Origin: Raillietiella orientalis
Lineage: Eukaryota
Assembly: GCA_036172245.1 (NCBI GenBank)
Contig: JAYWIR010000009.1
Location: forward strand, 4,836,001-4,900,000
Length of the DNA stretch: 64,000 nt
Direction of reading: 5' to 3'
Positions 4,723-54,200 of the stretch are shown in pieces (the stretch's first letter is position 1; each line of letters begins with the position of its first letter). A model generated the notes under the pieces. The model searched no databases. It saw only the letters and a program-made list of their open reading frames with translations, and was not told the DNA's origin. The position numbers were made by a program, and so were the translations under genes.

Positions 4723-4756
4723 ATCGCTTCTCGGTCCTTTGGCTGAGATCAAAGCG
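4723..4756 (+). pseudogene. U2 snRNA 5' fragment (nt 1-~33)
   Basis: ATCGCTTCTCGGTCCTTTGGCTGAGATCAAAGCG. GACGCCCC occurs on both sides (possible target-site duplication, TSD). Confidence 0.88.
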
Positions 4757-9554: not shown

Positions 9555-12500
9555 CGCACCGACGGCTGAAGGGAATCCTGGATTCTCCTGTGACCAGGGA
9601 GGGGAAGGCCAAGGAGGAACGGACGCGTCGGGAGCCCTTGCGGTCGCGGTCGATCTGCACAAAGCTTTCGATTTTCACCCGGATTTCGCCGGGTCGTTTA
9701 TTTAAAAAAATAAACTTTACAAAAGTTGTCAGTGGCTGTAGCAATGCTCCAGCCACGCACGAAGAAACACGGAGCCTGCCGGGTCATCGGTTCGCAGACC
9801 GGTACGGTCCTCCAAGGCAGCAGGGGGACGGGGTAAAACAAAAAACTAAACAAAAAGAAAAAAAAAAGAGTGGGAGGGTACGGGAAGGGATCACTGTTGC
9901 TGCTGGGGCCGTATCATCCTTCTCAGGATGCCGGCAAGCTCTTGCTGCATGCTTGGATCCAGGTGGGGCCATCGCGACGCCCTCCTCAGGAACTGGGAGG
10001 CTGGCTGGATGGCATCCTGGTCGTGTGGTCCTCCCGTAGCCTTGCTCCAGGCGGCGACGATCCCGCGAAGGCAGCACAGGGCTGCTAACCAGGCCGCTGG
10101 CCCAAGGGCGTCGGCAACGAAGACGGCTTTAAGAACGTCCCTGGGGTTGCCGCAGGGGATTCCTATGGCCGCGGCAAAGCGGAACCAAAGGGGCCGAAGG
10201 GCAACACAATCCACTAGCAGGTGGGGGAGGGACTCCCGTTCCCCACACCTGACGCAATTGGGGTCCACCGCTCCCCAGGTCCAGTGGTGTCTGCGGGCGT
10301 TGCAGGGGAGTCCCCAGTGCTCCAACAGGAATGCCGACTCCTGGCATTTTAAGGGGAAAGTGGAGGTGTCCATTAGTACCGGGGGCCACTTCAAACGTTC
10401 AATGAGAACGTCGAGCAGCGCGCTTCAGCGTAGAAGTCCATGGGGAGGCGTACTCGGGGTGGCAGCGTCAGTCAGCTGACCCATCTTCCACTCTCCTATC
10501 TTCTTCTCCTTCCCGGAGATTGTAACTGTAACCTCCCACTTCGGCGCAACATCGCTGTCGGAATCTTCCACTGGGGAGGCCAGCGCAGCAGCGAGGGGGG
10601 TTCTTCCTCGAGGAGGCGAGGGCTCGCTTCTTCGGATCCTCCGGGATCTCTCGGAGCGTGCAACTTCTGTAGCACCGAAACAAGAACCGTAGTTCCTGTT
10701 GGGCGCGTTGCATGCTGCACTGTCCCCACGTTCGAACGGTTTCATGCAACCAGGCACTACCGTTCAAAGGGCGACAGGTGACCAATCCTTGGTTTTTCCG
10801 TGTCAGCGCAGCCACCCTCCGTAGCTGAAGACCGCATCGGTTGACGCGGCGACGCAGTGCAAGAAACGACGTCAGTCCCGTCTTGCCGGTGGCTTGCTGG
10901 AGAAGGAGACGTGCAGGGACGCACCAACAGGTGCACCACAACTCTGGAACAAGTGCCGACATTCGGAACTGGAGCTGAAGCTCCAGCCGCTCCAATGTCA
11001 GGAGGCCGAGACCACCGTCTCGACGAGGAGCGCACAAGTCCTTTAAGCGGACTCGGGCCCTCCTGTTGCCCCAAAGGGCGATACGGAGGAGGTCCTTTGT
11101 CCGCTTTTTTATCCTCTCTGTGGGGGGGGAAACAAAAAGCAGGGGGCGGAGGAGAGGAGCCGCGAACGTGTTCCAAACCGCGGCCCGTTCAGGCAGGAAA
11201 AACCTGCCGCCTCGGAACGGGCCGATCGCCGTCTCTACTTTTTGGAGGCAGCAGGACCACGCTTCCGCAGGGGAGTAGTCCCCCAACGGTACACCAAGGT
11301 ACTTGAAGTACCTCACCGTGGGGATCCCCAAACGAACCCCGTCCTGCTGCCCTGCCCACGCCGCACCAACTGGCATCACGGACGACTTCGCCCTGTTCAC
11401 CGTAAGTCCGGTTCCCCGATGCAGCAGGTCGAAGAACTCCTCGACCGCCGAAGCCGGAATAGACATAGGGAGCAGCAGCAGAAGGTCGTCCGCGTACGCT
11501 GAAACCGCCGGTCTACCAGCGCAGTCGTGCGGGAGGTGAACCAGAGTTACCCTCTACGCTCTGAGCACCAATTTGAAATAGGCGCTGAAGAGCAAGGAGC
11601 TCAGGCTGTCTCCCTGCAGTATGCCACGCTGTCTCCCTGCACAAAGCTTTCGACTGCCTCGACCGGGAACTCCTCCTGGAGCTCCAGAAACGCGTGGGAT
11701 TCCCTTCCGTGTCCCTGGCCAATCTGAGCTCCTGCTGGCGCTTCGTGCTAATTAACATTTTTTGCGGCGGCCGACACGCGTGCGTCGTGCCCGTTCGCCG
11801 CTGCATAAGGTAGGACGACAGCTTCAGTCCCCTGCTCTTCAGCATCTACTTTGAGTTGGTGCTGAGAGCATACAGGAAGACTCTGGCAAGCCTGCTGAGC
11901 TCGTGTCCGGGCACTCCTGCCGTGTCGGCTTACGCGGACGATCTGCTGCTGCTGCTCCCCGGGTCCACCCCGGCATCAGCGCCGGTTTCTTCGAGTTGCT
12001 TAGCCGCGGGACAAGTCTGGAGGTGAACAGGGCGAAGTCGTCCATAGTGCCGACTGGCTCGACGTGGGCCGGACGGTCGGAGCGGATCCGCTTGGGGATC
12101 CCCACGGACCGGTACTTCAGGTACCTTGACTTTCCGTTGTGGACTTCTGAGTTGCAGAGACCCTGGTCCGGCCATCTCCAAAAGGTGAGGATGGCGCTCG
12201 GCTCGTTCCAAAATGGTAGGTTTCACATACCGGAACGGGCGGCGGTGGGGAACACGTTTGCGGTCTCTCTGCTTTGCCCTACTTTTTGTTTGCCGCGCTT
12301 CTGAGGCTATTCAAAAAAGGATCGAGGACCTCCTGAGGAAAGCCTTGTGGGGCAAAGGGAGGTCCCGAGTTCTCTTGAAAAACCTGTGTGCTCCGCGCAA
12401 AGATGGTTGACTGGGCCTCCCTACGCTTGAGCAAATAGCGCGTCAGCTCCAATTCAGAAGACTCGCCCTTGCGACGAAGTTTTGGACAACGCCTTGGTGC

Positions 12501-13765
12501 ACACCTGCACACCTCCTCACCTGAAGAGCGACCGGCTGCGAAGGACTGACCTCGATCCTCGTAGCCAACGATACCAGCCTGAGGCAATGTGGCCATCAGC
12601 TGCGTCGGATGGTTGCCTTGGTTCAGGAGAACACCTGGATCTCTTGCCTGCCCGCGAACTGCACTGCCTGGTTTCAGGAGTCAGTCTTCGCCTGGAGAAA
12701 GATCCATGGCTCGAGCGAGCCGGGGTACGCCTGCCTCCAGAAAGGAAGGTGCACTCGACAGCCCCTGCGGGAGATCGTATGCAACCCACGCAAACTGCTG
12801 TGGGCCTCGTTCACCCCTCTTGTCCCAGTGCTTCCCTCCCTGAAAAATGCAAGGCACAGTAATGAACCGACAAGATAGGAAGTGTCCAGCCCGTATCCAA
12901 GGCAGTAAAAGACTTTTAAGCGCATGGGCTTCTTGTCAGCTAGAGGACGCTGCGACTCCGAGTGTTCCGCCAAAAGGACTTTTACTCTGAAGCGAGGCTG
13001 CTCACGACACCTCTGGAGGAGGTGAAGTGGCCCCCAGCGTGTTGGGACGATGGCACTCTCCCCCTCAAGTGACAAGAGATGGCGTTGCTGTGTTGCATTG
13101 GGAAATCCCATGCAGAGCACGCCTCCATCATTGGATACGGGGAGCATCAATGCCAATTGTGCCAAAGTGCGGCAAGAAGAGACCTTCCCGCACTTATTGG
13201 AAGACTGTTCTGCCCTTCGACCACTTTGAAATCGTCTCTCGACGATCCTAGGAAAACCGGGGCGCCAACCAAGGGACATTTTCCGACGCCTCCTCCGGCG
13301 TACCGATCTGCTGCCAGCCACGTCCTTAGCAGTTCTCTGCTGTGTCCGTGGAACAGCTGCCTGGAACGCGACAAGGAGAGGGCAAATTGGCAGGAATGCC
13401 ATCCACTGGGAACGGATCTTTTTGAAAACCACCTCAAGATGGCCCCACCTGGGAAACTTAAAAACTGCACTTGTCAGCGTCCTGGACAGGATGCAGGGAA
13501 CGTATCCAGGCGAACAGTGATTCCTTCCTTGCCTTCCCCTCCCCAGGAAACTTCCTTCCCCCCCCCTCTTTTTTTTCTCTCTTTTTTGTTTGTTTTTTTG
13601 TTTTTTCCTTCCCTTTCGCCGCTAGGACGGACCTCACCGGTATGCGTACCGGTTTTTGACAAGTCCTTCGGGCGTGGAAGAACCAAGTGTTCTACCACGA
13701 TTTCGTTAATGTTACGACTTTTAATATATTTTTTTATAATAACTTCCCTGGCAATTCTGGGTGAA
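9555..13765 (+). mobile_element. L1/Tx1-like non-LTR retrotransposon (decayed ORF2 RT to 3' end), interrupted by a nested insertion at 9672-11636
   Basis: RLKGILD...AVAVDLHKAFD (9560-9671) resumes as KAFDCLDRELLL at ~11640. It continues with VSAYADDLLLLL (~11925), VNRAKS, FRYL, a CxxC..HL..C zf-RVT-like region (~13150-13210), a pyrimidine-rich 3' UTR and a terminal hairpin ending 13765. Confidence 0.85.
9672..11636 (-). mobile_element. 5'-truncated L1/Tx1-like non-LTR retrotransposon with 17-bp TSD
   Basis: Motifs GILQGDSLS, VSAYADDLLL, VNRAKS, FKYLGV, PRRDGGLG and zf-RVT CVRCGERESLPHLLVDC. Flanked by the exact direct repeat CTGCACAAAGCTTTCGA at 9655-9671 and 11637-11653. Confidence 0.92.
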
Positions 13766-13785
13766 TTCTGGGCAGTTCACGTCCG

Positions 13786-15075
13786 TTTCACCGGGAGCCT
13801 GCCGGGTTACCGGTTCGCAGACCGATGAAGACTTCCGTCACAGCAGCAAGGGGATGGGATAAGCAAAAAAGAAAAAGAAGAAAAAATAAAAATAAATAAA
13901 TAAACTTTGGGGAGAGGAGAGGTGCGTCTAGGGGTCACATTCTGCTGGGGGTGGTCTTGTGCTTTCTTTGGAGGATGTTGTTTTCCTCTTGCTGGATGTT
14001 GTTTTCCAGGTGGGGTCATCTCGTTGCCACCTTCATGAATCGGAAGGCGCAGTAGATGTTTCACACTCCTGTCATTCGGTCCTCCCCTTGAGTTGCTCCA
14101 GGCAGCGACGATCTCGCGTAGGCAGCATAAGGGGCTGCTAGCGAGGCTGCCTGCCGAAGGGCGTCGCGAACGAGGAGAGGATGTAAAGCGTCCCTAGAGT
14201 TGTCTCTGGGGGTTCCCAGGGTCGCGACAAAGCGCTCCTAGAGGGGCCGGCGGGCAACACAGTCCACCAGCAGGTGTAGGAGGGATTCCTGCTCCCCGCA
14301 CCTGCCACAGTTACGGTCCACACACCCCGGGTCTAGTGGTGCCGGCGGGAGTTGCGCCGGAAGTCTCAGCGCAATGGCATCACCACCGCCTCCTGCCACC
14401 TTAAGGGAGGCTGAGCCTGTCCGAAAGCACTGGTGGCCACTGCCGTTCTTCCTCCGGAATACCCAGTAGCTCTCTCCAGCGCAAAAGTCCACGAGGTAAT
14501 CCACGAGTCCACGAGTCTGCTCGGGATGGCAGCGTCCGTAAGCTAGCCTGTCATTCACTCACTAAGTCTTTTAGTCCATGTAGAGATCTCCACGGTGACC
14601 TTCCATCTAGCCGCAAGGCTGCTGCTCATGTGTTCCCTCAGGGAGGGCAGCGCTGTGGCACTGGAGGTTGATCCTGCCCACGTACTCTTTAATGGGTGTT
14701 CCAGTATCTCCCGGAGGTCAGCAGTTATGAGAACAGCCCAGCAAGCGCTGTATCTGTGCCTGGAGTGACTCGTTGTGCTGCCCCCACGTGGGGACGGTTC
14801 CCTGTAACCAGGCACCACCGTTCGCGGGGAGACACTAGATCCAGCTGTTCGTCCTGATGAGCTTGGCCACCCGCCGAATCCGCAGTCTGCAGTGGAGGCG
14901 GCTGCGTGCACGGCGCTCAAGGAACGACGCGAGTCCCGCGCTGCCGGTGGCTTGCTGGACGAGGAGGCATGGAGGGTCGCACCAGGTGGCGCTCCACCTT
15001 CTGACCACAAGGGCAAGCATCTGGAACTGGAACCGCAGCTCCATTCGCTCCAGTTTCAGAGGCCGAGGCTACCTT
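13786..15075 (-). mobile_element. 5'-truncated L1/Tx1-like element (ORF2 C-terminus + 3' UTR)
   Basis: ELRFQFQMLALV..WC.P..LLVQQATG is homologous to the 9672-11636 copy. Also CGRCGEQESLLHLLVDC and a 3' UTR hairpin ATCGGTCTGCGAACCGGT. Confidence 0.85.
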
Positions 15076-15084
15076 TTCCGAGGC

Positions 15085-16595
15085 AATCGTGAGCGTTCGA
15101 GGGTACCACGTACAGGAACTGTTGATCTTCTCCACATTCCTGCCCTGTGCCTGCAGGCCCCATCCTTCGGAGATGCGCCGGCAGCGAAGAACCACCCTGG
15201 TTGCTGCGCAGAGCCCTCTGCAGGATGCAAGGACTCCGCTCCCTCCCGGGGCAACTCACTTCTCTCCTGGAGGCCCAGCCGTGGATCTCCTGCCGCCCGA
15301 TAAACGTCAATGCCGGAGGCAGATTCCTGGACTGCAGCCCGGAGGATCTTTGTCCCCTGCCGTACTTCTGATCGCGACCTCTGGAAGTGGCGATGCAGGA
15401 CGCGGCAAAGTGGTTGATATTGGACGCAGCGCTGTCTATCCTTAGGGGAAGCGGAGAGAGCTGCCCGCCGGCGAGCTGAGTTCTCCTGCGCCATCGCAGG
15501 GAAAAGGACTGGAACCTCCTTGGCGGTGGGGAGATGAGCGAGCTGGCCGACGCTGTTGCTCCGCGCGACCCGGCGACGGGACTCCTTCGGCGATGCCAAC
15601 TTCTGGGTGTCTCTTCCGAGGAACTTGTGGTCCCTGCGCGCACTTCTGTGCTCCCGCTCTCCCAGAAGCAGTGCTCCTTCTGCGCTGGGGATTCCGAGAG
15701 CCGGCTCCCTCGTTGCCCAGGGGGGAAGGGTTGCATTCCCTAACTGTGCCAGGTGCGGGACAGCAGAGTCGATCCCGCCTCACCTGCTCTTGGACTGCGA
15801 TGACCTCCAGGAACCGTGGCGAAGGCTGGCGTCAGTGCTGCTGCACCGGGAGAACATCACCCGCTGGGGTCTGCTGCGGCGGTTCTTCGCGCCGGGAGGA
15901 CTTTCGACGGGATCGCAACATCTGCACCATCGCCACGTGCTCGAGACGATAAAGTGGAGCAAGGAGGTCACCATGGTGGCAGTCGTCTACGTGAGGACGG
16001 CAGCAAGGTGACTATTCATCTGCAAGATGACCTTTCCGCACTTATTGATGGACAATGTCGCCCTTTGAGATTGATTCTCGTTGATCCTCAAAATCCCTGT
16101 AGGCGACCTCAAGAATATTTTCTGGCGCCTCTTCAAGCGTGACGTCCTGCCTCCAGCCTCATCTCCAGCAGTGCTCTGCTGGGTATGCGAAAAAGTGGCA
16201 ACCTGGAACGCCAGAAAAAGGGGTCACAATAGCAGGGATACCATCCACTGGGAGGGAATCTTCCTGAAGACCGCTTCCCGATGGTCCCAACTGCAACCAA
16301 AGAACGCAGAACTTGTCAGCATCCTGAAGAGGATGCAAGGGACGTGTCCAGACGAACAGTGTTCCCTTTCCCACCCCCTTTTCCTCGAGCCCCCCTCCCC
16401 CTTTTTTTGTCTTTTTGTTTGGTTTCCCCTCCCCCTTTGTCACTGGAGCGGACCTCACTGGTCTGCGTACCGACTTTTGGCAAGTCCTTTGCGCGTGGTA
16501 GAACAACTCGTTGGTTCTACCACGATTTTGTGAACATCACGACTTTTATTATAATTTTTTTTAAAATAAATGCCTTGGAAAATTCGGGTGATAAA
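15085..16595 (+). mobile_element. L1/Tx1-like element 3' portion (probably a composite of two fragments)
   Basis: zf-RVT CARCGTAESIPPHLLLDC. 16080-16595 closely resembles 13230-13765, including the 3' UTR hairpins and the GGGTGATAAA end. Confidence 0.8.
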
Positions 16596-16699
16596 CCAGC
16601 AAGAAGACGTGAAGGAGGAGATCGACGGCGTCCAGAGCCGTTGTTGAAAGTAAGGAACGAAGGCCGACAGAGGTGACCTTTATCCCCGGCCTCCGTTGG

Positions 16700-17001
16700 A
16701 ATTCTTTTTTTTCTTTTTGTTTTTTACTGCACACTCCCTTTCGCTCCGTACCTTTCCTGGTTTTCACAGGTCGATCCCGCTGTGTACGGAGCGACACCAA
16801 AGACCCTCACCCCACTCCGCCGGATTCTCTCATTTTTTTTTTTTCTTTGCCTCCCCTTTCCCCTCCCGTTCCGGACTTTCCAATATTCCGACCTGCGTGT
16901 CGGTGGGCCCTCCTCCCTTTGTCCTCGGCTGGGAGCCAGCGTGTTCCCGACTGGTTCAATTTTGCGGAACGAACGTCCCCGGGTGTGACCGGGTGAAAAA
17001 A
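16700..17001 (+). mobile_element. 3'-UTR-only copy of the L1/Tx1-like family
   Basis: Pyrimidine tract, hairpin CCGAC-CTGCGT-GTCGG, and terminal AACGTCCCCGGGTGTGACCGGGTGAAAAAA. Confidence 0.65.
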
Positions 17002-17880
17002 TCTCCACTGCTTTCAGGTCGGGACGGCCCATCACCAGCCTCGCCCCCTTCCTAATTCTAGGACTTGATCCTGGAGCACGGATTCGCCACCCGAACCTCC
17101 GTCTGCTCCGAAAAGCAGCCGCCATATCAACCTGCCGACCATTTTTGCCCTCGGGAGCGCAAACCCTGATCCATTCTCGCGTCCCTCTTGTCTGCCGACG
17201 CGGCGAACGCAACCGCCCGCAGCCTCCAAGGAACAGTGGCGGCACGGAGCGCCTCCGAAAGAGGACAGACAGCACGGCAGGGACGACGACGCCCGTGGCG
17301 TCACGATCGTCTCCTCGAGGAAAACAGCGAGACGGTGGCTCCATCTGGTGGAATTGAGGGAGGAGTTTGTCAGCGTCCTACCGAGGAGAATCGAGAAGAA
17401 TGCTGGCCGCTCTCCCCCTCCCTCTTCTCCCAAGTAGACATCCATATTTTCCTTTTTTTTTATTTCACCTCTCTATCTCTGGCCAGCTGGCCTGTTTTCC
17501 TCTGGCTACTACGGAACCCCTGTACCTGAGACCCAGTGACCTGCTCTGCACCTACTATCCGTCCCACTTATTTTTTGTATGCTCGTTTGCGAGGATTTGC
17601 AGCAGTCACCTCGGCGCGATCAGTAGCAAGCGACCCCCACCCCATTTCATCATACTCCACCTCCCATATCACCCTCGTACGCGCAGACTTTTGCGGAGAC
17701 GAGAATTTCCGGGAGCTGCTTCCTCGGAGATCCTCCCAATAGAAAAGCTCTTAGCACATTCAAACTCGCAGAAAAAAAAAAAAAAGGAAAAATTCTATTC
17801 GTTCTTTCCATTTGTTTTCGCCTCCATGACAGAATCGACCCCAAATTCAGCTTCTCCATACCTCTATCGCGCCGGGGAAG

Positions 17881-18260
17881 TTTTTTACTCGGTCACGCCG
17901 CAGTGTTTGTTTTCTAAAAAAATAAACCAGTTGGGAACAAAGTTTCCAACCGACGGCAACCAGAAACGAAAGGGAGGGTCCACGGGCACGCAGTCCAGGA
18001 CAACAGAGTTCCTACGGGGAAGGGACACGAGGGCAACAAAAATAAACAAACTGGGTGGGAAGGGGCAGGGGTCTTTGGTTTCGCTCCGTGTGCACCGGGA
18101 TAAAAACAAAAAGCACCAAGAAAGTGACGGAGCGAATGGAGGTGGGGAATAAGAGAAAAATTAAAAAATAAAGGGAGGGAAGGGACACGGATCATCGAGT
18201 CCGTGGTTCCAAACCATCCATCAACCGGCGGTGGATGCCGGCGATCTCCTCCTTGGACCT
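17881..18260 (-). mobile_element. 3'-end fragment of the L1/Tx1-like family
   Basis: Reverse complement has a pyrimidine tract, the hairpin CGGTTGGAAAC-TTT-GTTCCCAACTG and terminal AAACAAACACTGCGGCGTGACCGAGTAAAAAA. Confidence 0.65.
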
Positions 18261-18279
18261 CTTCCAGGTGGAAATAACT

Positions 18280-21200
18280 CTTTGAAAATAACGTTCGTAC
18301 CAACATGTTCTACCCACCGACTTTTCTATCGAGTGATGGGCAACTATTCATTGACTACGACCCTCCACGGGAGTGCCCTTGTCCTATTCCAGACTGCGCG
18401 TTCGTGTGCACAGCGGCCCTCACTAAGAACCGCAATAGGAACCTCAAGGGGCACCTAGCCCGCATCCACTGGGTGGTTATCGATGCTCCTCGATACTTTT
18501 GCCCCAAATGCATCGTCTACGACGGCAATCACCGAGTCTTCTCTCCTCATGTCTGCCGGCCTCGTGATCTCCCACGCCCATCCATTCCACCTGCACTACG
18601 TGCCCGTTACTCGCAATGCCGTGCATCATTTGATAGACCTCACCCCTTAAGGCAGCATATCAACTGGCAACATGCAAAAACCGATCCCAAAGGCGGAGCC
18701 TTCGAAGCTCTGCAGGACATTACGGAGGATTCATCAATCGGTACCAGTCCTCAGCCGGTGACCTCCGTCGCCCGCCTCTGCACGACACAGATGGATGTCT
18801 GGAGAGACGTGGATGCCACCAAGGAAGCAGACCAGCCACTGGAGGCGATCCTCTGCACCCCAAGTGCACTGCGACGCTCAGCCAGCATAAGCAGCCCAGC
18901 ACTCCTGGAAGGCTCCCATTGCCGGAAACACCATGTCGGCAGCCCACCAAACGGCCGCCTATACGTTCCCTCGTGGGTGACGACTTTCCCCCGCTGCCAA
19001 GCTCACCCTTGCATGCCACACCGGCGGACTCAAGCTCCTGCCTCCTAGTGCTTCCGTCCATTCCGGCGACATATCTGGATGATCCGCGCCTCAGAGCTGA
19101 GCCTATGGTACGACTATCTCCATTACCCCAGGCTGATATTGAGCGGTTGTTACACGACAGTCCAGAGCCGAGCGGACCGCTAACCCTGTCTTGCCCATGC
19201 GGCCAGCATGATGCAGGCAGCTCCCATGACTCCGTGCTAACCGTGGCGTCTTCCTCTCAGACTGGAATGGAGTTTTCGACCACTTGTGCCCACCCTGCAC
19301 CGCCAGCGCACCCGGCTTAAGTGCGCTCCTTCGAACCAAAAGGACAAAGGAGGAGACGAGTGGCTCTTCAAATCCCCAAGTTGGATCGCGTCCTAGCCAA
19401 CACTAGACATATACGTGCTAATGTACCCAAAATGCGACCTGAGGCCCAACGGGCCATACCAACTGAGCCTGAGCAGGCTGCGCTGCAAACTGGCTGAGTC
19501 CAGCGCACAGAACAGAATGGGGTCACACAACTCCGAGTGCCATCTCACTCGGTGCTGTCGGAGGATGACGTTCTGGCTGTCTACCTCCCGACTGCCACCA
19601 GCATGCCCTGCCCTCTCCCTGAATGCAGATGGTCCTCCTCTGCTATGGTATCCAAAAACGTCCTAGGATTGCTTCGGCGACACATCCAGAGCGCGCACTG
19701 GATTCCGATCAAGGGAACCTACTTGATCTGCAGGCAGTGAGGCAAGAACTTAACTCCTCCTCTGTGGCGGCATCGTTGTGGTCCCAAACCTCTTCGACCC
19801 TTTGAGGTACTTGCTCCACTTGTCTGCTCAGCTCCCAGCTGCGGCCAACTCTTCCATAACCATAAGGCGCTTTCCAGCCACCGTAGGTGGCATGATGCGC
19901 TGGGCAGACAGCAGCGCATGTGCGGCAGCCAGCCAACGTTTCTCCCGCGCGCTGATAGAGGCGCGCGGCCTCGGTCAGACTACCGTGAGGACGGCGCGCG
20001 CAGCCAGCTGCGGCTTCCCACAGGTAGGCCAGCAGACCCACAAAGGGGGCCGCGCGACGTTACAGACTCGGTTCTGCTACCAAGATCGGCGCATACGCAA
20101 CTGTCTGTCCCGTCGGTCCCCTCCCCACCTCTTGAGCAGCAGTGGAAGACAGTGCGAGCGCGTAGCCACCGAATGAGCGATGCGAACCACCCACAGGCCA
20201 CGCGTACTCGGGCCCTCCACCCTCAGAGCGGGGAATCTGAACAGGGGCAAGGACCACCTCCCGTCCCTGGATCCCGATGAGCCCTGCTCGTTGATGCAAG
20301 CGAGCTCGACCCTCTGGAGCATGTAGCTCCTAGTCATCCCCGGACGAGTACGCGTGCGGCCACCGCTTCTCGGCCTTTTGCCTAAGATCAAAGTGCAAGG
20401 GCGCCGCCGAGGACAACGTTGTTCGATAGTCCGCAACGCGCTGAGTCCTCCCTTGCTTTCCTTGACGAGGCTACCGCAACTCTAGAGGACTTAGCTCAGC
20501 GTCTTCTGACCATTGATAATTGGGGGCTATGCGGACTCTCTTCTCCATCTACACGGCCACTCAACACACGCTTCGCCTCCGCCCCTTCTCCCCTCAATCG
20601 AGTGCCATCCTCCCCCAATCGATTACTCCGAAGGCTATTCAGCACCTATATAGGCGGAACGGAGACTTGCGATTAGGTTTATCCTCCACGGGACACCCAT
20701 GCGGTGCAGGGCGGACCCTGAGAGAATCCATACGCACTTCTCCAAGCTTTTCAATCCCTCCTGCCTTCAGGCCGTTCCCTTGGGACTTCGGGATAGCTGC
20801 TGAGCAAGACGGTGTGAGCAGGTCCCCTTTCATCCCGCAGGAGATTGTGAGCTGCCTCAGACTCTGTGAGGACACAACTCCTGGATAGGATGGTCTAACG
20901 TGCTTTGCCTTTCGCAAGGTGGATCCCGAGGCACGCATGTTATGCGCCGTCTTTAACCTCTGCCTGGTACACTGGAGCATCCCTGCCGAATGGAAGAACT
21001 CCAGGACCACACTCACCCCCAAAGGCTCGGTCCAGGATCCTGAAGACCTAGCGCAGTTCCACCCAATTGTGATCAGCAGCACGATTGGCAATATGTTTAT
21101 CAAATTCATGGCCAGGCGCATGCGAGATTCGATTCACTGGAACGCGGTTACAGGTTCGCATCAAAAGGGATTTCTCCCTTTCGATGGGATGCTAGAGCAT

Positions 21201-23200
21201 AACTTCATGCTCGCGTACCTCAAGGAATATAGCCGGAGGCAGCATCACACACTCTGTGCGGCGTGGATAGATCTAAAGGATGCCTACTCCTCGATTCCCC
21301 ACACGCAGCTTGTGCGCTCCAGTGTGCCGGAGCAGGTGACATTTCTGTGGAACTGATCTGCGACATGTATACAGCCAAAAACACCCAGGTTTTGACCTCT
21401 ACCGGGTTCTTTCCGCCCACATACATCTTCCGTGAGGTGAAGCAGGGTTGTGCTCTCTGGGCTATTGTTCGATGCCAGGGCATTAGGACAAAAGTGCCCG
21501 TAGTGACAGTGCTAGCTTATGCGGACGACCTGGTTGTCTTAATACAGGACGCCGAGAGTTTGCAAGTAACCCTTAACTACACATGCTGGATCTCTGAACG
21601 TTTAGAGTTTACGATAAATGCCAGAAAATGTTCCTAATTCCACTACGATCCGTCCACTCCAGAACAGTCAGCCAGATGCCTTTTGAGATCGCTAGCGATC
21701 CCATACCCGCCCTCACCGACACTGGCACATACAACTATCTCGGGAAGCCTGAGGACTTCGATGCCATTCGGAGCGATGCTCTCGACACCGAGATACTGAA
21801 CGATGTGTTCAAAGTGTTAGATGCACCACTGGCACCCTGGCAGAAGAACGATGCCCTGAAGACATTTGTCTTACCCTCCTTTGTCCCTTCGAATGGGCTC
21901 TAAATCCAAGACTTTCTGGAGTGGGATTGACAACATCCTCAGGAACGCGCTCAAAGAGGATATTCTCCCGCTGACGCAAGCCTCCTCGATGGAGTATCTG
22001 TTCGGATCTGTGGCCCGAGGATCCCTGGGCATGCTGATCCTAGCGGAGGAAGCCGATATCATGGCCACCGACTCCGCGTTTAAACTCTTAATTTGCTCTG
22101 ACCCGGTTATTCGTCAGTTCGCCAGAGACTTCCTGAATGAGGCCGTCCGGGAAAAAGTGCGACAACAGCCAGATGCACAACTCGTCTCAGCATATCTAAG
22201 AGGGGACCTCGCTCCACCCCTGCATCGCCCAACAGGGGATCCTGCAAACTTTGGTCCCGTGTCCGGTAAGCCTCGAAGAGACTTGGCATTCAATGGAACT
22301 ACTCCCACAGTGCAGTGACGATCCCCTCACCAATCGGACTCTTTGCGAGAGCGATCGGAAGGTTGTGGCCCACACCATACGTAGGGTTAGGCGCCTCCAC
22401 TAAGTCGGACTCCACGTGCGAAGCCTGATGAAGACCGCACGATCGATTGCGTGATGCTCCGCCCTGCGTCCATATGCTTCCTGGAGCGCAGTGAGCTATT
22501 ACACTTCAGTGACTGGCGGTTCATACACCGCGCCAGACTGAACCAATTGACACTGAATGGCAATGTTAAGCACTCAGACTTTCATGAGGCTGCCAGCATC
22601 CAAAGGAGACATTGGTCCATGTACTTTGCCATTGCCTCCACCGCTAGGATCTGGGTACTAGGATAGCGGACAGACACAATTCGGTAATTCACCACTGGAG
22701 GCTGTTGGTAGTGATCACTGAACCGGAAATGAAACAGAAATGAGTGATGATGATCCTTGAGGTGAACGCCCCTTAATAAATGGCCACAGCTGGCAATCGA
22801 CCGTTCCGATCCCGAAATCAACAGTGCTCTCCGCCCAGACCTGGTGGCTTCCGATGGGCAGCGTGTCCTCATCACCAATGTAACGATCCCGTATGAAAAC
22901 CGAAAGGCGTCCCTCGACGCTGCTAGGACCAGGAAGATCACCAAATACCAACTCGTGAAGCAGGACTACGAGGCACAGGGCTTCCCAGTCAAAATAGATG
23001 CGCTCGTTATTGGGTCGCTGGGAAGTTGGCACCCCAATAACGCTGCGGTCCTGAGCTTTCTCGACCTGAGAAATCGCACAATGAAGGCGGTTCGCCCTGT
23101 CATGATCTCAGTGATCCGAGAGGCCCGCGATATCTACTTCGACCACGTCTCCAGCCGACCCTCTGGACTCTCTAGGGAACCAAATAGTGCCAGCAGACAC
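18280..23200 (+). mobile_element. Decayed RLE-type non-LTR retrotransposon (NeSL/Utopia-like, R2 superfamily)
   Basis: N-terminal Cys/His fingers (CPCPIPDC..HLARIH..CPKC; CPLPEC..RHIQSAH). RT motifs: PG*DG, IPAEWK, HQKGFLPFDGMLEHNF, WIDLKDAYSSIPH, VKQGC, LAYADDLV, YNYLG. Then LAPWQKND, DWRFIHRARLN and the restriction-like endonuclease RPDLV..NVTIPYENR..AR..K..KY..VIGSLGSW. Many stops and frameshifts; 19780-20360 looks like a foreign minus-strand insert. Confidence 0.9.
20362..20395 (+). pseudogene. U2 snRNA 5' fragment (nt 1-34)
   Basis: ACCGCTTCTCGGCCTTTTGCCTAAGATCAAAGTG, 2 mismatches to the U2 5' end. Confidence 0.9.
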
Positions 23201-23239
23201 TCGGATCCTTTCCTCCAACTGCAAGCCTCCTTGTGCGAG

Positions 23240-25526
23240 GACCTTATCTCTTTGTAACTTTCACCTGCAACTGTTGTTCGATACCCTCTCTGAGGATCAT
23301 TTTGTAACAGTGCGTGGAAATAAAAGCCACCTTGCAGCCGTCTTCATGTAGGTGGCTGCCATCCTGGTGACTTCCCTTCACTGTGTGGTCGTTTCGAGCA
23401 CAGGGACGGGCCCTATCGATGGCACAGATGCAACCCATGGTCGCAATAGCAGCGCCCATCGAGAGGCTTCTCAGCGTGCTGAACCGCCACAGCATGTCTC
23501 GGGTGGTGTCCTCCTGGTGCAGGAGCGCTGTTGCCAGCCTCCGCCACAGTTCCCAGAGGGCAATGCAGTCCAAGAGCCGGTGCGAGATCGACTCCGTCGA
23601 CCCGCACCTGGCACAGTGCGGGGATGCAACGGAAAGCGCACCTGGCAGCGAGAAACCTGGCTGGAAGACGCACGCGTTGATGAATGCTGCCACTCCACGT
23701 GCTGAGGCGACAAGACGCTTTCGGTGGGTGAACTTTGGAGTGTTAACCTCGAAGAACTTGTGGTTCCTCTCCATTCCTTATACACTTCGGTGTTTTCGCT
23801 CCCTGGAAACAGGACTTGCTGCTGTTCATCCACTGGGAATTCCAGTGCAACGAGCGGCGACACCGAGTTTCCGCCAGGAGTACGACAGGGGGGCAACACT
23901 CAAGAGTTCGCCCCACCGAAGGAATCCCTTCGCCACTGAACGCGGAGTGGCAGCATCCACCAACTCACTCTTATAGGCACCGAGGAGTTTTGTTTTTCCC
24001 GCTATGGTGCAGGAAAACTCCGACTTCGCTGGTTGGCTACTGTCGTCTCTTGCCCTGAGGGCAGGCAGCGCTGCGGCAACGGTCGAAAACTTCACCGCGT
24101 CCTGCATCACCACTTCCAGAGGTTGTGGCAACAGATGTCGCAGGGAGTGAAGATCTTCAGGGCGCATTCCTAGGAATGCAGTCCAGGATTCAACGGCTTC
24201 CTGCTGCCAGAGCTGAAGTTCGTTGGGAGGCAGAAGATCCACGGATGGACTTCCACTAGAAAGGCGAATTGCCTCAGGGGAAGCCGAACCCCTGCATCCT
24301 GTAAACGAGCTCGGCAGCAATCTTTTGCTGCCGGCCATCTCTGCAGGATGATGCATGCGGGCGCACACAACGGGGGTGTCCACAGCTGTGCCGGGACAGT
24401 CGTACCTCTCCTTACCACACCTTCCTTCTCAGATCACCACAGTTCGTAGGCGCAGGGCGTTGGTCGCAACGCTTGCCTCCCTCAGAGTCTTAGTGGAGGG
24501 CGAGCCACTAGAAAACGACCCTGCCACATTTCGCCACAGAGTCAGACTCGAGACGGGAGCGTTTAAAGTCCCATCCTGTGTTTTTAGGTTGAACTGTTGG
24601 TCGCCATGCCGATCGCATCCGCTGACGTCAGGACGCTCCGTGCCGGTTCCCGGAGCACGCTTTCTCGAAAGCAGTCTTGCCCTGATCGAGGAAAGTTTTG
24701 TTTAGAAATATTCTTGCTGGTGGTGCCCTCCAGGACTTGCTGCTTCGCAGCATTGAGAAGTTTCCCTAAGCTCACGGGTGTTGACTACCATTGCCAGCCC
24801 TCGCATCCTTTGAGCGGCGGAAGCTTGCTGAAGATGGCGAGTGAAGGCGCCATGGAGGAAGCTGCAGCATCCCATCCGAATGGTGTCTTGGCCCGTAGCC
24901 AAGCAGTCGCCTCTTCGACTCGGTCACCCACCCCTGCGAGGCTATGGAGCAAAATGATGGCAGTTTCTGCACCTCCGAAACAGCGGGAGGTGGCGGAATA
25001 TGTGGCTCAGCGCTGCTACAGTCCGCTCCTCCTATACAAGGTAAGTCGCCTGGGATCTCGGGCGTGGCAGCGAATACGGAGCGCAAACTTTCGTGGGAAA
25101 CTTCGGAGTTAAGGGGAAATGAAATGAGGATGCAAGCAAAGCAAGCACGGGACCTCTCCTGCATAGACGCTGCCCTCATGCAGCGTCTCTTGAGGATGCT
25201 TCTGAATATCCTCTGAATATTGAGGCACCAAAACGCCTGGGATCTGCACCTTCAATCGCTGAGGGGGATACCGCCAAATATGTCGGACGGGCAGTTTGCC
25301 ACAGTCTCCAACGTCCACGCTCCGGCCCGGGTTTCGAGGCAGGACTAGCTTCGGTCAGGATGGCGGCTGCAGAAAGAGCAACCACCCTCCACATTCTGTA
25401 TTTCGTAGTGGGGACGACATAGGTCGACGAAATACGCGTCTGCCTACAGGCGCGGTAGAAGGCGCGTAGCAGCTGACCACGGCTTTCTACGCGCCTTCCG
25501 CCAGAGCAATACGGTGGGCACCAACA
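23240..25526 (-). mobile_element. L1/Tx1-like fragments (ORF2 C-terminal region), probably composite
   Basis: CARCGSTESISHRLLDC..LWRRLATALLH is homologous to 15700-16000. RCCWCPP near 25520 is homologous to CTCWCVP of the 9672-11636 copy. Confidence 0.7.
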
Positions 25527-32827: not shown

Positions 32828-32862
32828 ATCGCTTCTCGGCCTTTTGGCTAAGATCAAAGTGT
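32828..32862 (+). pseudogene. U2 snRNA 5' fragment (nt 1-35), perfect match
   Basis: ATCGCTTCTCGGCCTTTTGGCTAAGATCAAAGTGT. Confidence 0.95.
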
Positions 32863-32954
32863 TCACGGCCATACCACGCTGAAAGCACCGCCTCTCGTTA
32901 GACCGGCGAAGTTAAGCAGCGTCGGGCCCGGTCAGAACCCCGGGTGCCGTGAGC
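32861..32954 (+). pseudogene. 5S rRNA copy with ~24-nt internal deletion (box C / helix IV region missing)
   Basis: GTTCACGGCCATACCACGCTGAAAGCACCGCCTCTCGTTAGACCGGCGAAGTTAAGCAGCGTCGGGCCCGGTCAG/AACCCCGGGTGCCGTGAGC. The termini GTTCACGGC and GCCGTGAGC form helix I. Confidence 0.92.
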
Positions 32955-32959
32955 GACCC

Positions 32960-32964
32960 TTTTT
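32960..32964 (+). terminator. Oligo-T RNA polymerase III terminator-like run after the 5S copy
   Basis: TTTTT starts 6 nt after the 5S 3' end. Confidence 0.55.
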
Positions 32965-33849
32965 ACCTGGATGCAATTGTGGTGGGCTCTCTGGGATCCT
33001 GGGACCCCAAAAATGACGAGGCAAACGCCCGCCTTGGCATCCCGGATACGGTGGCGACAACTCTGAGGAAGGCGGCAATCGCCTCCACGATAAGATAGTC
33101 AAGGGATATCTACTCCCACCACATCGAGCGCCCAAACCCCCCCGGACCCTCTAGCCCAACAGAAGCCTCTAGTGAACCTGATGCCTCCCAATCCGGTCTG
33201 CAGCTTTCTGCCCCCAAACTCCCGCAAGATCCCCAGCCTACAAAGCCTGCATTGGAACAACTGGACGCCCTGGGAGCCACTTATGGTCCACCCATCACGT
33301 GAAGAAACCCCGCCGTTACAGCTGAGGGAGCGGAAAACATGCGACTTTATATTCTGCTTCCATGGACCTAACCCACCCACGCATTGATCAGAGCCTCTTT
33401 CAACTGATTGAAGAGATTAAGCCTTAGCGATTCATTTCACGAGCCGCCGCAAATAGCGTAACCCCTATTTATACCTCTAGGAGAGGAAACAATGTAAATC
33501 CCAAAAGCAATAAAGACCTAGTTGGCATCTCGTCGGGACTGCCCTCAGTCGGCCTCAGATGAGCTGGCATGTCTTCCTGGGGCAGTCTGCTTCGCGGGAG
33601 CGGAGCTGGCGACCCCCCTCTCCACCTCCTTCCCTTAGCCTCCCCCTGGACTTGCCAGCGTGAAGTGCGAGGTCAGCGTCGGGTACTCCTGCGCGCACGC
33701 TCATTCAACGTCCCGTGAACGATTCCCCTCAGGCGTGGGCGTGGCGTCTTGCCGGACGCTCGGACTGGTGTACGGCGGCCTCGCCAACACGGTAGGCAGG
33801 GAGCCTGCGTCCGAGGTGGGGAAGCCCCAAAGAGGCGCTTTGGAGTTCG

Positions 33850-51200: not shown

Positions 51201-54200
51201 AAAGAAGGAAAGCTCCTGCCTTTCCCCTCTATAAAGCTGTGACTGTTGCTGGGTCTACGAAGGCGTAATGCGAAGACACTGTGGTAACACCTGGGGTGGT
51301 GGTCAGCACAGGATTGTCGCAGAGCGCGACGCGAGAGTACGCCGCGTGGGGTGCGTTGCCGAGCAGCAGGGTACGATGACCACCACCACCACCGCCACCA
51401 CTCCCTTTCGAAGTCAGCGGTCCTCGAGAGCGGAAAATTTTTTCCTCGCTCTCCCCCACTACTCCTTCAGCGGGTCGCTCTCGCTGGCGGAGATGACTCC
51501 GTCTTCCTTCTTGCCGAGCGCCATCCAGAGCGTTCCTGAAACCCAAAGACGTCCGTCTAAGAGCCGGGATCTATGAACAGCGAGAGGCAATGTAAAAATG
51601 ACGACGACGGCGAAGACGACGACGAGGATGAATTATCTCATGAGCACCTTCGCTGCCGCCTTTCCAAGAAGTAGCGGGAGAGAGAAAATTCCTCGCGACC
51701 GTCAGTACTGCCAACCCTGCAACCTACTCCGCAGCCTCAGACTGCCAGAGGTCAGCAGAAGACTTGCGGAAGACTCTGCTGAAGCTAGTGGCGGTCGCCG
51801 CACCGAAGCTGTTCTTCAGGTCCGAGGCGACTCTTGGCTACGCTGTCGGTCGGCAGCTCCAGAGAAACTGCGGGCGATTTCCCCCTTCGCCTGAGGACCC
51901 TAGGAGGTGGAGGTGCGGCGACCCTGGGTAGAGAGGAGGTGGGAGGCGGGAGGGCATCGGGGAGCGATGCCTTTGCCCTGGGTTCAGCAGGGTCATTCCG
52001 TGCCAAAGACTTCTTTCCGCAGGGCGCGCGCGAGGTTCGGCGCCAGGGAGACGGCAAGCGTCTGCCTTCCTCGCATGGACCTCCGACTGACCACCTCCTC
52101 CGAACCCGCGACCCGGGGGGGGAGGGGGATGGTGAGACTCGTCCGGCGCCGGAAAGCGGCGATCTGACGCCGGCACCGCGAGTCCCTGCAATGGACGTCT
52201 CCCGATCCAACCCTGAACGGTTCCTCCGGACCCGCCAAGAAGGTGTCCACGGCCGCTTCGGAGAGCGCGCGCCAGGTACTGGCTGCGAGGCAGGTGTCCG
52301 CCACCCCTTTCGGGGGGGAGGGTCTGCCTGATGAGTTTTCCCAGCATGCAACGTGTCTGTGGAGGGCTAGGTCCCGGCGACTAAATCTACTAGATGATGA
52401 TGGCACGTCAATCGGTGAATGAACACAGCTCATTCGAGTGAGCCCGTGGTAGGCCTCCGCACTCTTCGTCCATGCATCTCTGTCTTTCCTCCTACAGACC
52501 AAATGGGATTGCTAGCACGTGGTTTCACGGCCTTTTGGCTAAGATCGAAGTGAGTTGCAGAGTGGGAAGGGAGAAAGTAGGCACAGCGGTTCCTTGCGGT
52601 GGGACGCTTGGATTTATGGGTGTTGTGAAAGCGCACAGCGCTGCTGTGGGGTGCGGGACGTTCTGGGAAGGATTGAGGGAAAAATAAGATAAAACTCATC
52701 TGCGAAAGTCAATTTTAATTAATGAAAAGAGGAAAACCAACAATGGGAAACTGCGAGCCTGAGGAGCCATGCATCACTTAAATCAAATTTGGAGTTTTTT
52801 TGTCTCCTTTTGTTTGGAAATGCGAAAACAGAATGTTTCCATGGGAACCTTCTTTGTTTTCGGAGAGAGGGAAAGAAGGATGAGTCATTCCGTCTAAATA
52901 TATATACATACATACATATATTTAGACGAAATTTGCGTTTATATGTATAGGAAACATTTGTTTGTTTGTTTATAAACAGAATCCCACGAATATTCGTGGG
53001 ATCGGGAGAGGCTGCCGCGGCAGAAATTCAGGCGTCGGATTGAAGGATTTGAGGCAGTCGCTCTGGAGCAGCAGGCAGCGAATTTTCGCATACGGCGGCG
53101 GCCCATTTTGTGCGCTGACCATGGGAGCCCTTGTAGTTCGCGGCTGAGTCGGTTGCAAGGGTTCCTGGCCAGTAGCCGGCACACTTCGCGAGCGCGTGCC
53201 AGCCGTCGGCCCTCCCGGAGAGTCGCCTCGGGGAAGAGCCGTTCTTTCGCCGCGGGGGGCGCCGCGTGGCGGCAGGCAGGAACGCTCGTTCGCGAGCCAG
53301 CCACTCTCGAAGGACTCGCTCCCTCCCTGCCCCCTCCCGCTTCTTCCCCAAAGGCGCCCTTGGACCCCGATGCCTGCGCAACTGCCCGGCTCCTCTCCCT
53401 TTCCCTTTTTGCAGCCTGTCAAGGGCTCCGCGCGGCCGCCCGGAGGTGCCGGTCTGCCGGGGGCACGGGTCGACTCGGAGAGGAATCCGCCGCGTCCGCT
53501 TCCTGGGCTCGGAGGCTCCAGCACGCTGCCCGAGCTCGCCGCGGTGGGCGCCCGTCCCATCTTGGTGTCCTCCTCCTCCCCCCCCTTCACCCGCCTGCTG
53601 TCGTTGCAGATCCAGATCCCCAAGCAGCCCGACGGATGCTGCCTGCTGTACCCTTCCTACGACAGCCTGGAGGAGCTGCAGAAGGACAAGAAAGGTCAGT
53701 TGCCCCCATCCCCATCCCGACGCAGTGCGGGATCCGGGAGGCGACGGACGGGTAGCAGGGGCAGGGAGGAAGACGTCCATCCCGGTCCTGCAGCCCGCGG
53801 CGAGGCGGAAGCAGCGGAGCGTGCTGTTCCTTCCTGCGCCGCCAGGGGCGCTGCGGACGCTTCCGCTTTCCTCCTTCCAGACCCCAGCAAGTACCGCTTC
53901 GTGTGCTGGGACATTGCCAAGAGGGGCACCGTCGGCGAGAACATCCTCCACCTCTGCATGCTCAATTCCTCGTCCGTCCATGAGGACCTCGCCCGCAGAA
54001 TCATCCGGCACTTCCCCAAAATGATCAACGACATCTACATCTGTGACGAGTACTACGGTGAGGACGGTAGGGCTACGCCTCCCCCCGCGGGGAGAGGCGC
54101 CTCCGTGGGAGAAACCCTCCCCTCTTCCACGCCTCCGGGCAAAGCGACGCCTGGAGGCGGGTGCTGTTGAGGAAGAGGGCGACACCCGCCCTCGGTTTAG

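What the first reader, a model, noticed from the sequence alone, without database searches (positions are those of the whole stretch)
32828..32964. Seamless U2-5S rRNA chimera with a precise internal deletion and Pol III terminator
Seen: a perfect U2 nt 1-34/35 overlaps by G(T) the very first base of a 5S rRNA. The 5S keeps both termini (helix I intact) and box A, lacks ~24 nt covering box C and helix IV, and is followed by GACCC-TTTTT. Known: snRNA-headed chimeric retrogenes (e.g. U6-L1) arise by template switching or RNA ligation; 5S-derived SINE3 elements exist; box C is needed for TFIIIA-dependent transcription. Inference: either RT jumped from the exact 5' end of a 5S-type RNA to the 3' end of a U2 fragment, or this is the head of a new composite U2/5S SINE or small RNA. 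I do not recall a described U2-5S fusion of this kind.
Basis: partly seen in the sequence, partly recalled or inferred. Interest (0 to 1): 0.75.

Follow-up and report, generated by a model that had tools for sequence, protein, structure and literature searches.

The report
U2–5S–retrotransposon three-part dead retrocopy
This is a one-off genomic fossil in which a retrotransposon's copying enzyme most likely hopped from its own RNA onto a 5S rRNA and then onto U2 snRNA, so it is not a new mobile-element family or working RNA, though it exposes a genome with hundreds of short U2 stubs, some of which cap related retrotransposons.

Summary
The junction is real, but the unit is longer than reported. 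It has three parts: U2 nt 1-35 (32828-32862), a 5S copy lacking 24 nt with its own terminator (32861-32964), and the last 553 nt of an R2-group, Utopia-related non-LTR retrotransposon (32965-33517).

The 5S part matches one gene on contig C11, trailer included (2 substitutions plus the deletion). Both joints have short overlaps (GT; TTT). The U2-5S joint and the deletion joint each occur once in the assembly, and both flanks are unique. No U2 promoter flank, box C or target-site duplication is present.

Best reading (0.75): a dead retrocopy made by two template switches during reverse transcription (element to pre-5S to U2). It is not a SINE.

The U2 head is a genome-wide habit: 520 near-exact U2 5' stubs, mostly free-standing. 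At least 7 of the 30 closest relatives of the element carry one at or near their 5' end, including the nearest sister copy. Tripartite chimeric retrocopies are known; I did not find this combination in print. Expression and raw-read support were not testable.

The parts
32828..32862 (+). U2 snRNA nt 1-35 (stem-loop I and the start of the branch-point-pairing stretch); its last 2 nt (GT) are shared with 5S nt 1-2
   Evidence: Rfam U2; identical for 35 nt to promoter-linked U2 5' end L146
32861..32935 (+). 5S rRNA nt 1-75 (5' strand of helix I, domain beta, box A and intermediate element by recalled Xenopus numbering); 2 substitutions vs L002
32935..32936 (+). Joint of a 24-nt deletion (5S nt 76-99: the distal hairpin, helix IV/loop D, and all of box C by recalled numbering); 1-nt G overlap; found once in the assembly
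32936..32955 (+). 5S rRNA nt 100-119 (3' strands of the proximal helix and helix I)
32956..32964 (+). 5S gene trailer and T5 terminator, same as at L002; its last Ts overlap the TTT at the element's truncation point
32965..33517 (+). 3' 553 nt of a restriction-like-endonuclease non-LTR retrotransposon (end of the ORF with one stop, 3' UTR, AATAAA end); 93% identical to the C31 copy, 88% to two C9 copies; no target-site duplication, not followed by U2

Best explanation
A single dead retrocopy made in one target-primed reverse transcription. An R2-group, Utopia-related element primed at this site and copied 553 nt of its own 3' end. The new cDNA then switched, through a TTT/UUU overlap, onto the U-tailed 3' end of a pre-5S transcript of the C11-type gene and copied it to nt 1. 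It skipped the 24-nt distal hairpin on the way, or lost it later. It then switched again through a 2-nt overlap into the single-stranded stretch of U2 at nt 34-35 and ran to the U2 5' end before joining the genome. The U2 donor was either U2 snRNA or the U2 nt 1-38 leader of an element transcript. Shown: the three parts, their order and sense orientation, the source-gene trailer, the overlaps, the single copy and the U2-headed sister copies. Inferred: one event, template switching rather than ligation, the timing of the deletion, and that the copy is inert.
For: The 5S starts at nt 1 and ends in the source gene's own trailer with no gene flanks. All three parts are in sense. Overlaps are present at both joints. 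The body is the 3' end of elements with an RT domain (PF00078, E 2.6e-11), a CCHC knuckle and an endonuclease-type motif. The nearest sister copy (C31, 93%) is also 5'-truncated, starts with U2 nt 14-37 and has an imperfect ~16-nt flanking repeat. At least 7 of the 30 best endonuclease-domain matches have a sense U2 stub at or near their 5' end (5; C31; window ~20362), against about 0.3% per locus by chance for 500 stubs. The joints are single-copy and the flanks unique. Precedent: double template jumps (PMC2104539) and non-coding-RNA fusions at R2 5' junctions (PMC11371274).
Against: No target-site duplication flanks this insertion, so one event is not proven. Overlaps of 2-3 nt can arise by chance. 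No second 5S-retrotransposon fusion was seen in 39 other 5S loci (0 of 39). Most U2 stubs are free-standing: only 4 of 130 inspected have sense element protein similarity directly behind them, so another enzyme may make the stubs. In human L1 chimeras the 5S piece is usually truncated and antisense (bioRxiv 2025.02.02.635956), unlike here.
Confidence: 0.75

Rival explanations
1. The RNAs were ligated first (RtcB-type joining of a U2 fragment to 5S and of pre-5S to broken element RNA) and the chimeric RNA was then copied once, as proposed for U6/L1.
For: Whole 5S from nt 1 to its terminator in sense orientation resembles full-length sense U6 in U6/L1 chimeras (passages of bioRxiv 2025.02.02.635956; PMC6789731 seen as a search listing only). 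PMC11371274 leaves jumping versus ligation open for R2.
Against: Ligation needs no overlap, yet both joints have one. Two ligations are needed. Pol III 5' triphosphate and 3'-OH ends are poor RtcB substrates (recalled).
Confidence: 0.12
2. Sequential events: a 5S-element chimera inserted first, and a free U2 stub later landed exactly at its 5' edge or was captured during repair of that edge.
For: U2 stubs are abundant (520 matches with at most 2 mismatches; 4 in this window) and join targets by short overlaps. The whole insert has no target duplication.
Against: Landing exactly at 5S nt 1 among 210 Mb is very unlikely by chance (inference). No copy of the 5S start lies upstream of the stub, as a duplication would leave. 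U2 stubs are enriched at element 5' ends.
Confidence: 0.08
3. Head of a new U2/5S SINE, or a functional chimeric small RNA.
For: The shortened 5S still folds as a closed three-way junction (-46 kcal/mol, z -4.65). The layout (RNA head plus LINE tail) is how SINEs begin, and U2-headed SINEs exist (PMC4494074).
Against: One copy of each joint; 1 of 130 U2 stubs is followed by 5S. Box C is deleted, the U2 promoter flank is absent, and T5 precedes the tail. Two substitutions in 138 nt against 4.2 expected (P 0.21) give no sign of constraint. The fold is inherited from 5S.
Confidence: 0.03
4. Assembly artefact joining reads from U2, 5S and a retrotransposon.
For: No raw reads could be checked here.
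Against: The site lies inside a 5.1-Mb contig with unique flanks. The 5S and element parts differ from every other copy seen. U2-element joints of the same type recur on other contigs.
Confidence: 0.02

Closest known systems
Tripartite chimeric retrogenes (Magnaporthe WEIRD/Mg-SINE/MGL; mouse B2/U6/L1; PMC2104539, abstract and section 8 read)
   Same: Three sense-oriented RNA copies fused end to end with a LINE 3' part last, explained by two template switches
   Different: Parts here are U2/5S/R2-group element; no flanking direct repeat (theirs are 14-16 bp); the middle part has an internal deletion
snRNA/L1 and 5S/L1 chimeras (bioRxiv 10.1101/2025.02.02.635956, passages read)
   Same: Small RNA copy fused to a 5'-truncated LINE; one-off, does not propagate
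   Different: There 5S pieces are mostly truncated and antisense; here 5S runs from nt 1 to its terminator in sense. The carrier is an R2-group element, not L1, and there is an extra U2 head
Utopia U2-targeting non-LTR retrotransposons (PMC4640811, parts 1-3 of 5 read)
   Same: RT, CCHC knuckle and restriction-like endonuclease; related to elements of this genome that are followed by U2 nt 39 onward; weakly specific families are known
   Different: None of the 4 copies of this family is followed by U2. U2 5' sequence appears as a short head at ectopic sites. The text I read does not describe this; its supplementary junction figure was not seen
Tailless U2/5S retropseudogenes (PMC5322556, passages and section 16 read)
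   Same: 3'-truncated U2 copies ending in a single-stranded region, many with flanking repeats (26 of 90 here)
   Different: Described as L1 products in therian mammals; the enzyme here is untested, and some stubs head retrotransposon pieces
SINEU and SINE3 (PMC4494074, passages and section 19 read)
   Same: U2- or 5S-derived head added by template switch to a LINE-type tail
   Different: Those are multi-copy families from master elements; this is one copy without box C
R2 5' junctions with 28S leader or U6 'extra template' (PMC3774820 abstract; PMC11371274 passages)
   Same: An R2-group RT carries target-derived or non-coding RNA sequence into the 5' junction
   Different: Here the added RNA is U2 and 5S, in endogenous copies

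Membership tests
Chimeric retrogene (template-switch type) | Copies of different transcripts fused directly, same orientation, LINE 3' end last | tested here: met
Chimeric retrogene (template-switch type) | Target-site duplication around the whole unit | tested here: not met
   Longest repeat 2 nt. The C31 sister has an imperfect one. PMC4640811 reports that arthropod Utopia families make none, so absence is not decisive
Chimeric retrogene (template-switch type) | Unique joints, not propagated | tested here: met
   1 match each; assembly may be incomplete
SINE (SINE3 / SINEU) | Many dispersed copies sharing head and joints | tested here: not met
   1 of 130 stubs followed by 5S
SINE (SINE3 / SINEU) | Intact internal Pol III promoter (boxes A and C) with no terminator before the tail | tested here: not met
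   nt 76-99 deleted (box numbering recalled); T5 at 32960-32964
Utopia | RT plus C-terminal CCHC knuckle and restriction-like endonuclease | tested here: met
   Sister copies: PF00078; motifs read from translations; named hits include arthropod proteins labelled R2-type, 33-42% identity among the top hits
Utopia | 3' end joined to U2 nt 39 | tested here: not met
   0 of 4 copies of this family; 5 of the 30 best related loci are so joined
Utopia | RT tree position among reference Utopia/NeSL families | not tested
   No named reference set in hand. Indirect only: 50-61% identity in the best tblastx stretches to the U2(1-38)-headed element L149, whose 5' UTR is 78% like that of promoter-linked L146
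Functional 5S or U2 gene | Full length with own promoter context | tested here: not met
   U2 ends at nt 35; upstream differs from the flank shared by 4 promoter-linked U2 5' ends; 5S lacks 24 nt
Expressed chimeric small RNA | RNA reads across the joint | not testable with these tools
   No run was listed

The most novel reading that the evidence does not exclude
In this genome Utopia-lineage reverse transcriptases routinely finish by jumping onto the 5' ~35 nt of U2, the upstream half of their ancestral target. They carry it as a leader on transcripts made from the U2 promoter, or take it from U2 snRNA. The same reaction would cap truncated copies and captured RNAs such as this 5S, and would seed the hundreds of free U2 stubs. 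The window's chimera would then be a snapshot of serial in vivo template jumping by an R2-group enzyme, and a ready-made U2/5S SINE precursor.
Probability: 0.3. Interest if true: 0.55.

Novelty: new variant of a known kind. Interest (0 to 1): 0.33.

Why it matters
The locus itself is almost certainly inert. It is useful as a natural record of two successive template switches by an R2-group retrotransposon, a class now used for gene insertion, where unwanted non-coding RNA at 5' junctions is a reported by-product (PMC11371274). The larger point is the setting: 520 U2 5' stubs, U2-headed truncated and full-length Utopia-like elements, and no intact U2 gene found in the assembly. That makes the open question of how Utopia elements are transcribed and form their 5' junction directly testable in this organism.

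Tried and rejected
SINE family: no second copy of the unit or of either joint. A C83 hit that looked like a second deleted copy is a decayed 5S with a different 3' part.

Other 5S-element fusions: 0 of 39 5S loci (the search scored only 40 of 286 candidates).

Other small RNAs behind U2 stubs: no Rfam match at gathering score in 40 of 40 loci scanned. The 90 other loci were checked only with 5S, U2 and element queries. Low-threshold ARAGORN hits include the 5S itself and were not trusted.

Ribozyme at the 5' end of U2-headed elements: no Rfam match other than U2 in 4 of 4 loci; no custom search was done.

Target duplication around the window insert: none. My first duplication test (5 of 30) missed overlaps and was replaced.

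Twister-P5 and lncRNA hits are below cut-off and were ignored. tblastn against phages found nothing and is uninformative. Sequencing runs: none was listed. mis-parsed L188; its junction was read. PMC2912911 gave no useful passage. The coral 'U2-5S' probe (PMC9005458) is an 824-bp amplicon with U2-like and partial 5S sequence, not this structure.

Full report
Observation. Rfam places 5S at 32861-32955 (72.1 bits) and a U2 5' match from 32828. Of 39 other 5S loci compared, the best match is L002 (G000:C11:1429494). The window copy differs from it by 2 substitutions and one 24-nt deletion (nt 76-99, or 75-98 because of a shared G), and shares its GACCC-T5 trailer. The deleted stretch is the distal hairpin and holds box C; box A and the intermediate element remain (Xenopus numbering recalled). 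The shortened 5S still folds well (z -4.65), but that fold is inherited. The U2 part has one A more than the Rfam consensus. This looks native: 213 exact AAA 21-mers against 0 AA 20-mers, and AAA in 4 of 4 U2 5' ends behind a shared promoter-like flank. The window's 35 nt are identical to one of these, and the last two (GT) are also 5S nt 1-2.

The missed third part. Bases 32965-33517 match 3 other places (93% on C31; 88% twice on C9). There they are the 3' end of longer elements with a reverse transcriptase (PF00078, E 2.6e-11), a CCHC knuckle and a restriction-like endonuclease motif (read from translations). Named hits include tick, spider and insect proteins labelled R2-type, at 33-42% identity near the top of the list. 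At the joint the element reads CTGTTT|ACGTGG and the window CTTTTT|ACCTGG, so the 5S terminator overlaps the truncation point by an exact TTT. The insert is therefore U2 head, 5S, element tail: 690 nt, all in sense, with unique flanks and no target duplication.

Copy number. The 137-nt unit matches in full only itself (40 of 286 candidates scored). The deletion joint (up to 2 mismatches) and the U2-5S joint (gap of 0-12 nt allowed) each give 1 match. No element similarity was found at 39 of 39 other 5S loci. Two substitutions in 138 nt against 4.2 expected from half the body divergence give P 0.21: no sign of constraint.

The U2 head in context. The assembly has 90 exact 31-mers of the U2 5' end and 520 matches to a 23-mer with up to 2 mismatches. 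The 90 stop at U2 nt 34-38, and 26 of 90 have a flanking repeat of at least 7 nt against 40 of 8006 shuffled pairs. They look like tailless retrocopies. I inspected 130 stubs: the 90, plus 40 of the 123 further 21-mer matches, taken from contigs C1-C9 and leaving out C1:9997733, which was already known to head an element (L169). One of 130 is followed by 5S. Four of 130 are followed directly by sense element protein similarity and one by antisense. Three more lead into element UTR (L074, L143, L146). Most stubs are thus free-standing, which counts against tying all of them to this element.

From the element side the link is strong. Among the 30 best endonuclease-domain matches (of 150 listed), 5 have a sense U2 stub in the fetched flank (the window, L169, L174, L188, and L173 in a native U2 gene). 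Two more have one just beyond it: the C31 sister, with U2 nt 14-37 fused to its truncation point and an imperfect ~16-nt flanking repeat, and an element in this window at about 20362-23324 (joint not resolved to the base). Chance is about 0.3% per locus. Upstream flanks of the other 23 were seen only to 1.5 kb. Many U2 3' halves begin at nt 39 behind an AATAAA end, the Utopia signature (PMC4640811). One element with a long 5' UTR carries U2 nt 1-38 both behind the promoter flank (L146) and at an unrelated site (L143/L149). The best tblastx stretches between L149 and the window's family are 50-61% identical. None of the 4 copies of the window's family is followed by U2, so I call it Utopia-related, not a shown Utopia member.

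Mechanism. Most likely (0.75) one target-primed reverse transcription with two template switches: element 3' end, then U-tailed pre-5S copied to nt 1, then U2 entered at nt 34-35. The trailer shows the template was a terminator-length 5S transcript. The deletion removes one hairpin, as skipping by the enzyme would, but later DNA loss is not excluded. Rivals are ligation before copying (0.12), sequential insertion (0.08), SINE or functional RNA (0.03) and artefact (0.02). A Pol III transcript is unlikely: box C is gone and T5 precedes the tail. The U2 promoter flank is absent.

Comparison with print. Double-switch tripartite retrogenes are described in Magnaporthe and mouse (PMC2104539; abstract and section 8). 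U1-U6 and 5S chimeras with L1 are catalogued, with 5S mostly truncated and antisense (bioRxiv 2025.02.02.635956; passages; supplements closed). U2 heads are added to crocodilian SINEs (PMC4494074; passages and section 19). Tailless U2 and 5S copies are known (PMC5322556; passages and section 16). R2 proteins jump templates and fuse U6 at 5' junctions (PMC11371274; passages), and some R2 RNAs keep a 28S leader (PMC3774820; abstract). Searches showed no U2/5S/R2-group tripartite copy; the one 'U2-5S' paper concerns a coral amplicon. The library lacks most subscription journals and Repbase, and I did not see the Utopia paper's supplementary junction figure, which may already show U2-headed copies.

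Verdict. Real, single-copy and probably inert: a new combination of a known kind of chimeric retrocopy. Interest 0.33, mostly for the U2-stub and Utopia setting that it reveals. Expression and raw-read support remain open.

Noticed in passing
G000 whole assembly: No intact U2 gene was found. All 4 promoter-linked U2 5' ends seen break off at nt 33-38, and the 20 best Rfam U2 loci lack the 5' part. Probably an unassembled array, but heavy Utopia load is evident.
   Followed up: partly
window 32856-32858 and genome-wide: U2 here has an extra A just before the branch-point-pairing stretch relative to the Rfam consensus (213 AAA vs 0 AA).
   Followed up: partly
G000 whole assembly: 520 near-exact U2 5' stubs, ending at nt 34-38, many with flanking repeats (26 of 90). 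Several repeat the last U2 bases at the joint (L034, L074, L080, L090).
   Followed up: partly
window ~20362-23324 (+): A second, more distant RLE non-LTR element with a U2 5' stub just upstream of its first protein match and an AATAAA at 23319; another RT fragment at 19564-19893.
   Followed up: partly
window ~4723-4754 and ~52519-52552 (+): Two more diverged, apparently free-standing U2 5' stubs, making 4 in this window.
   Followed up: partly
L146 (G000:C482) and L149 (G000:C57:797860 downward): U2 nt 1-38 followed by a related long 5' UTR, once behind the U2 promoter flank and once at an unrelated site; suggests elements travel with a U2 leader. No Rfam ribozyme match.
   Followed up: partly
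L074, L144, L188: Ectopic units of U2 head, truncated element and a short piece of U2 from nt 39, i.e. both target halves carried to a new site.
   Followed up: partly
L005-L017, L025, L027, L029 (G000:C24, C40, C109, C12): 5S gene clusters in mixed orientation with interspersed, about 75% identical 5S variants; several 5S sequence types coexist.
   Followed up: no
window 9771-16564, 11281-12142, 15730-23630: Diverged direct repeats about 2.8 and 4 kb apart and long inverted repeats; probably other decayed mobile elements.
   Followed up: no
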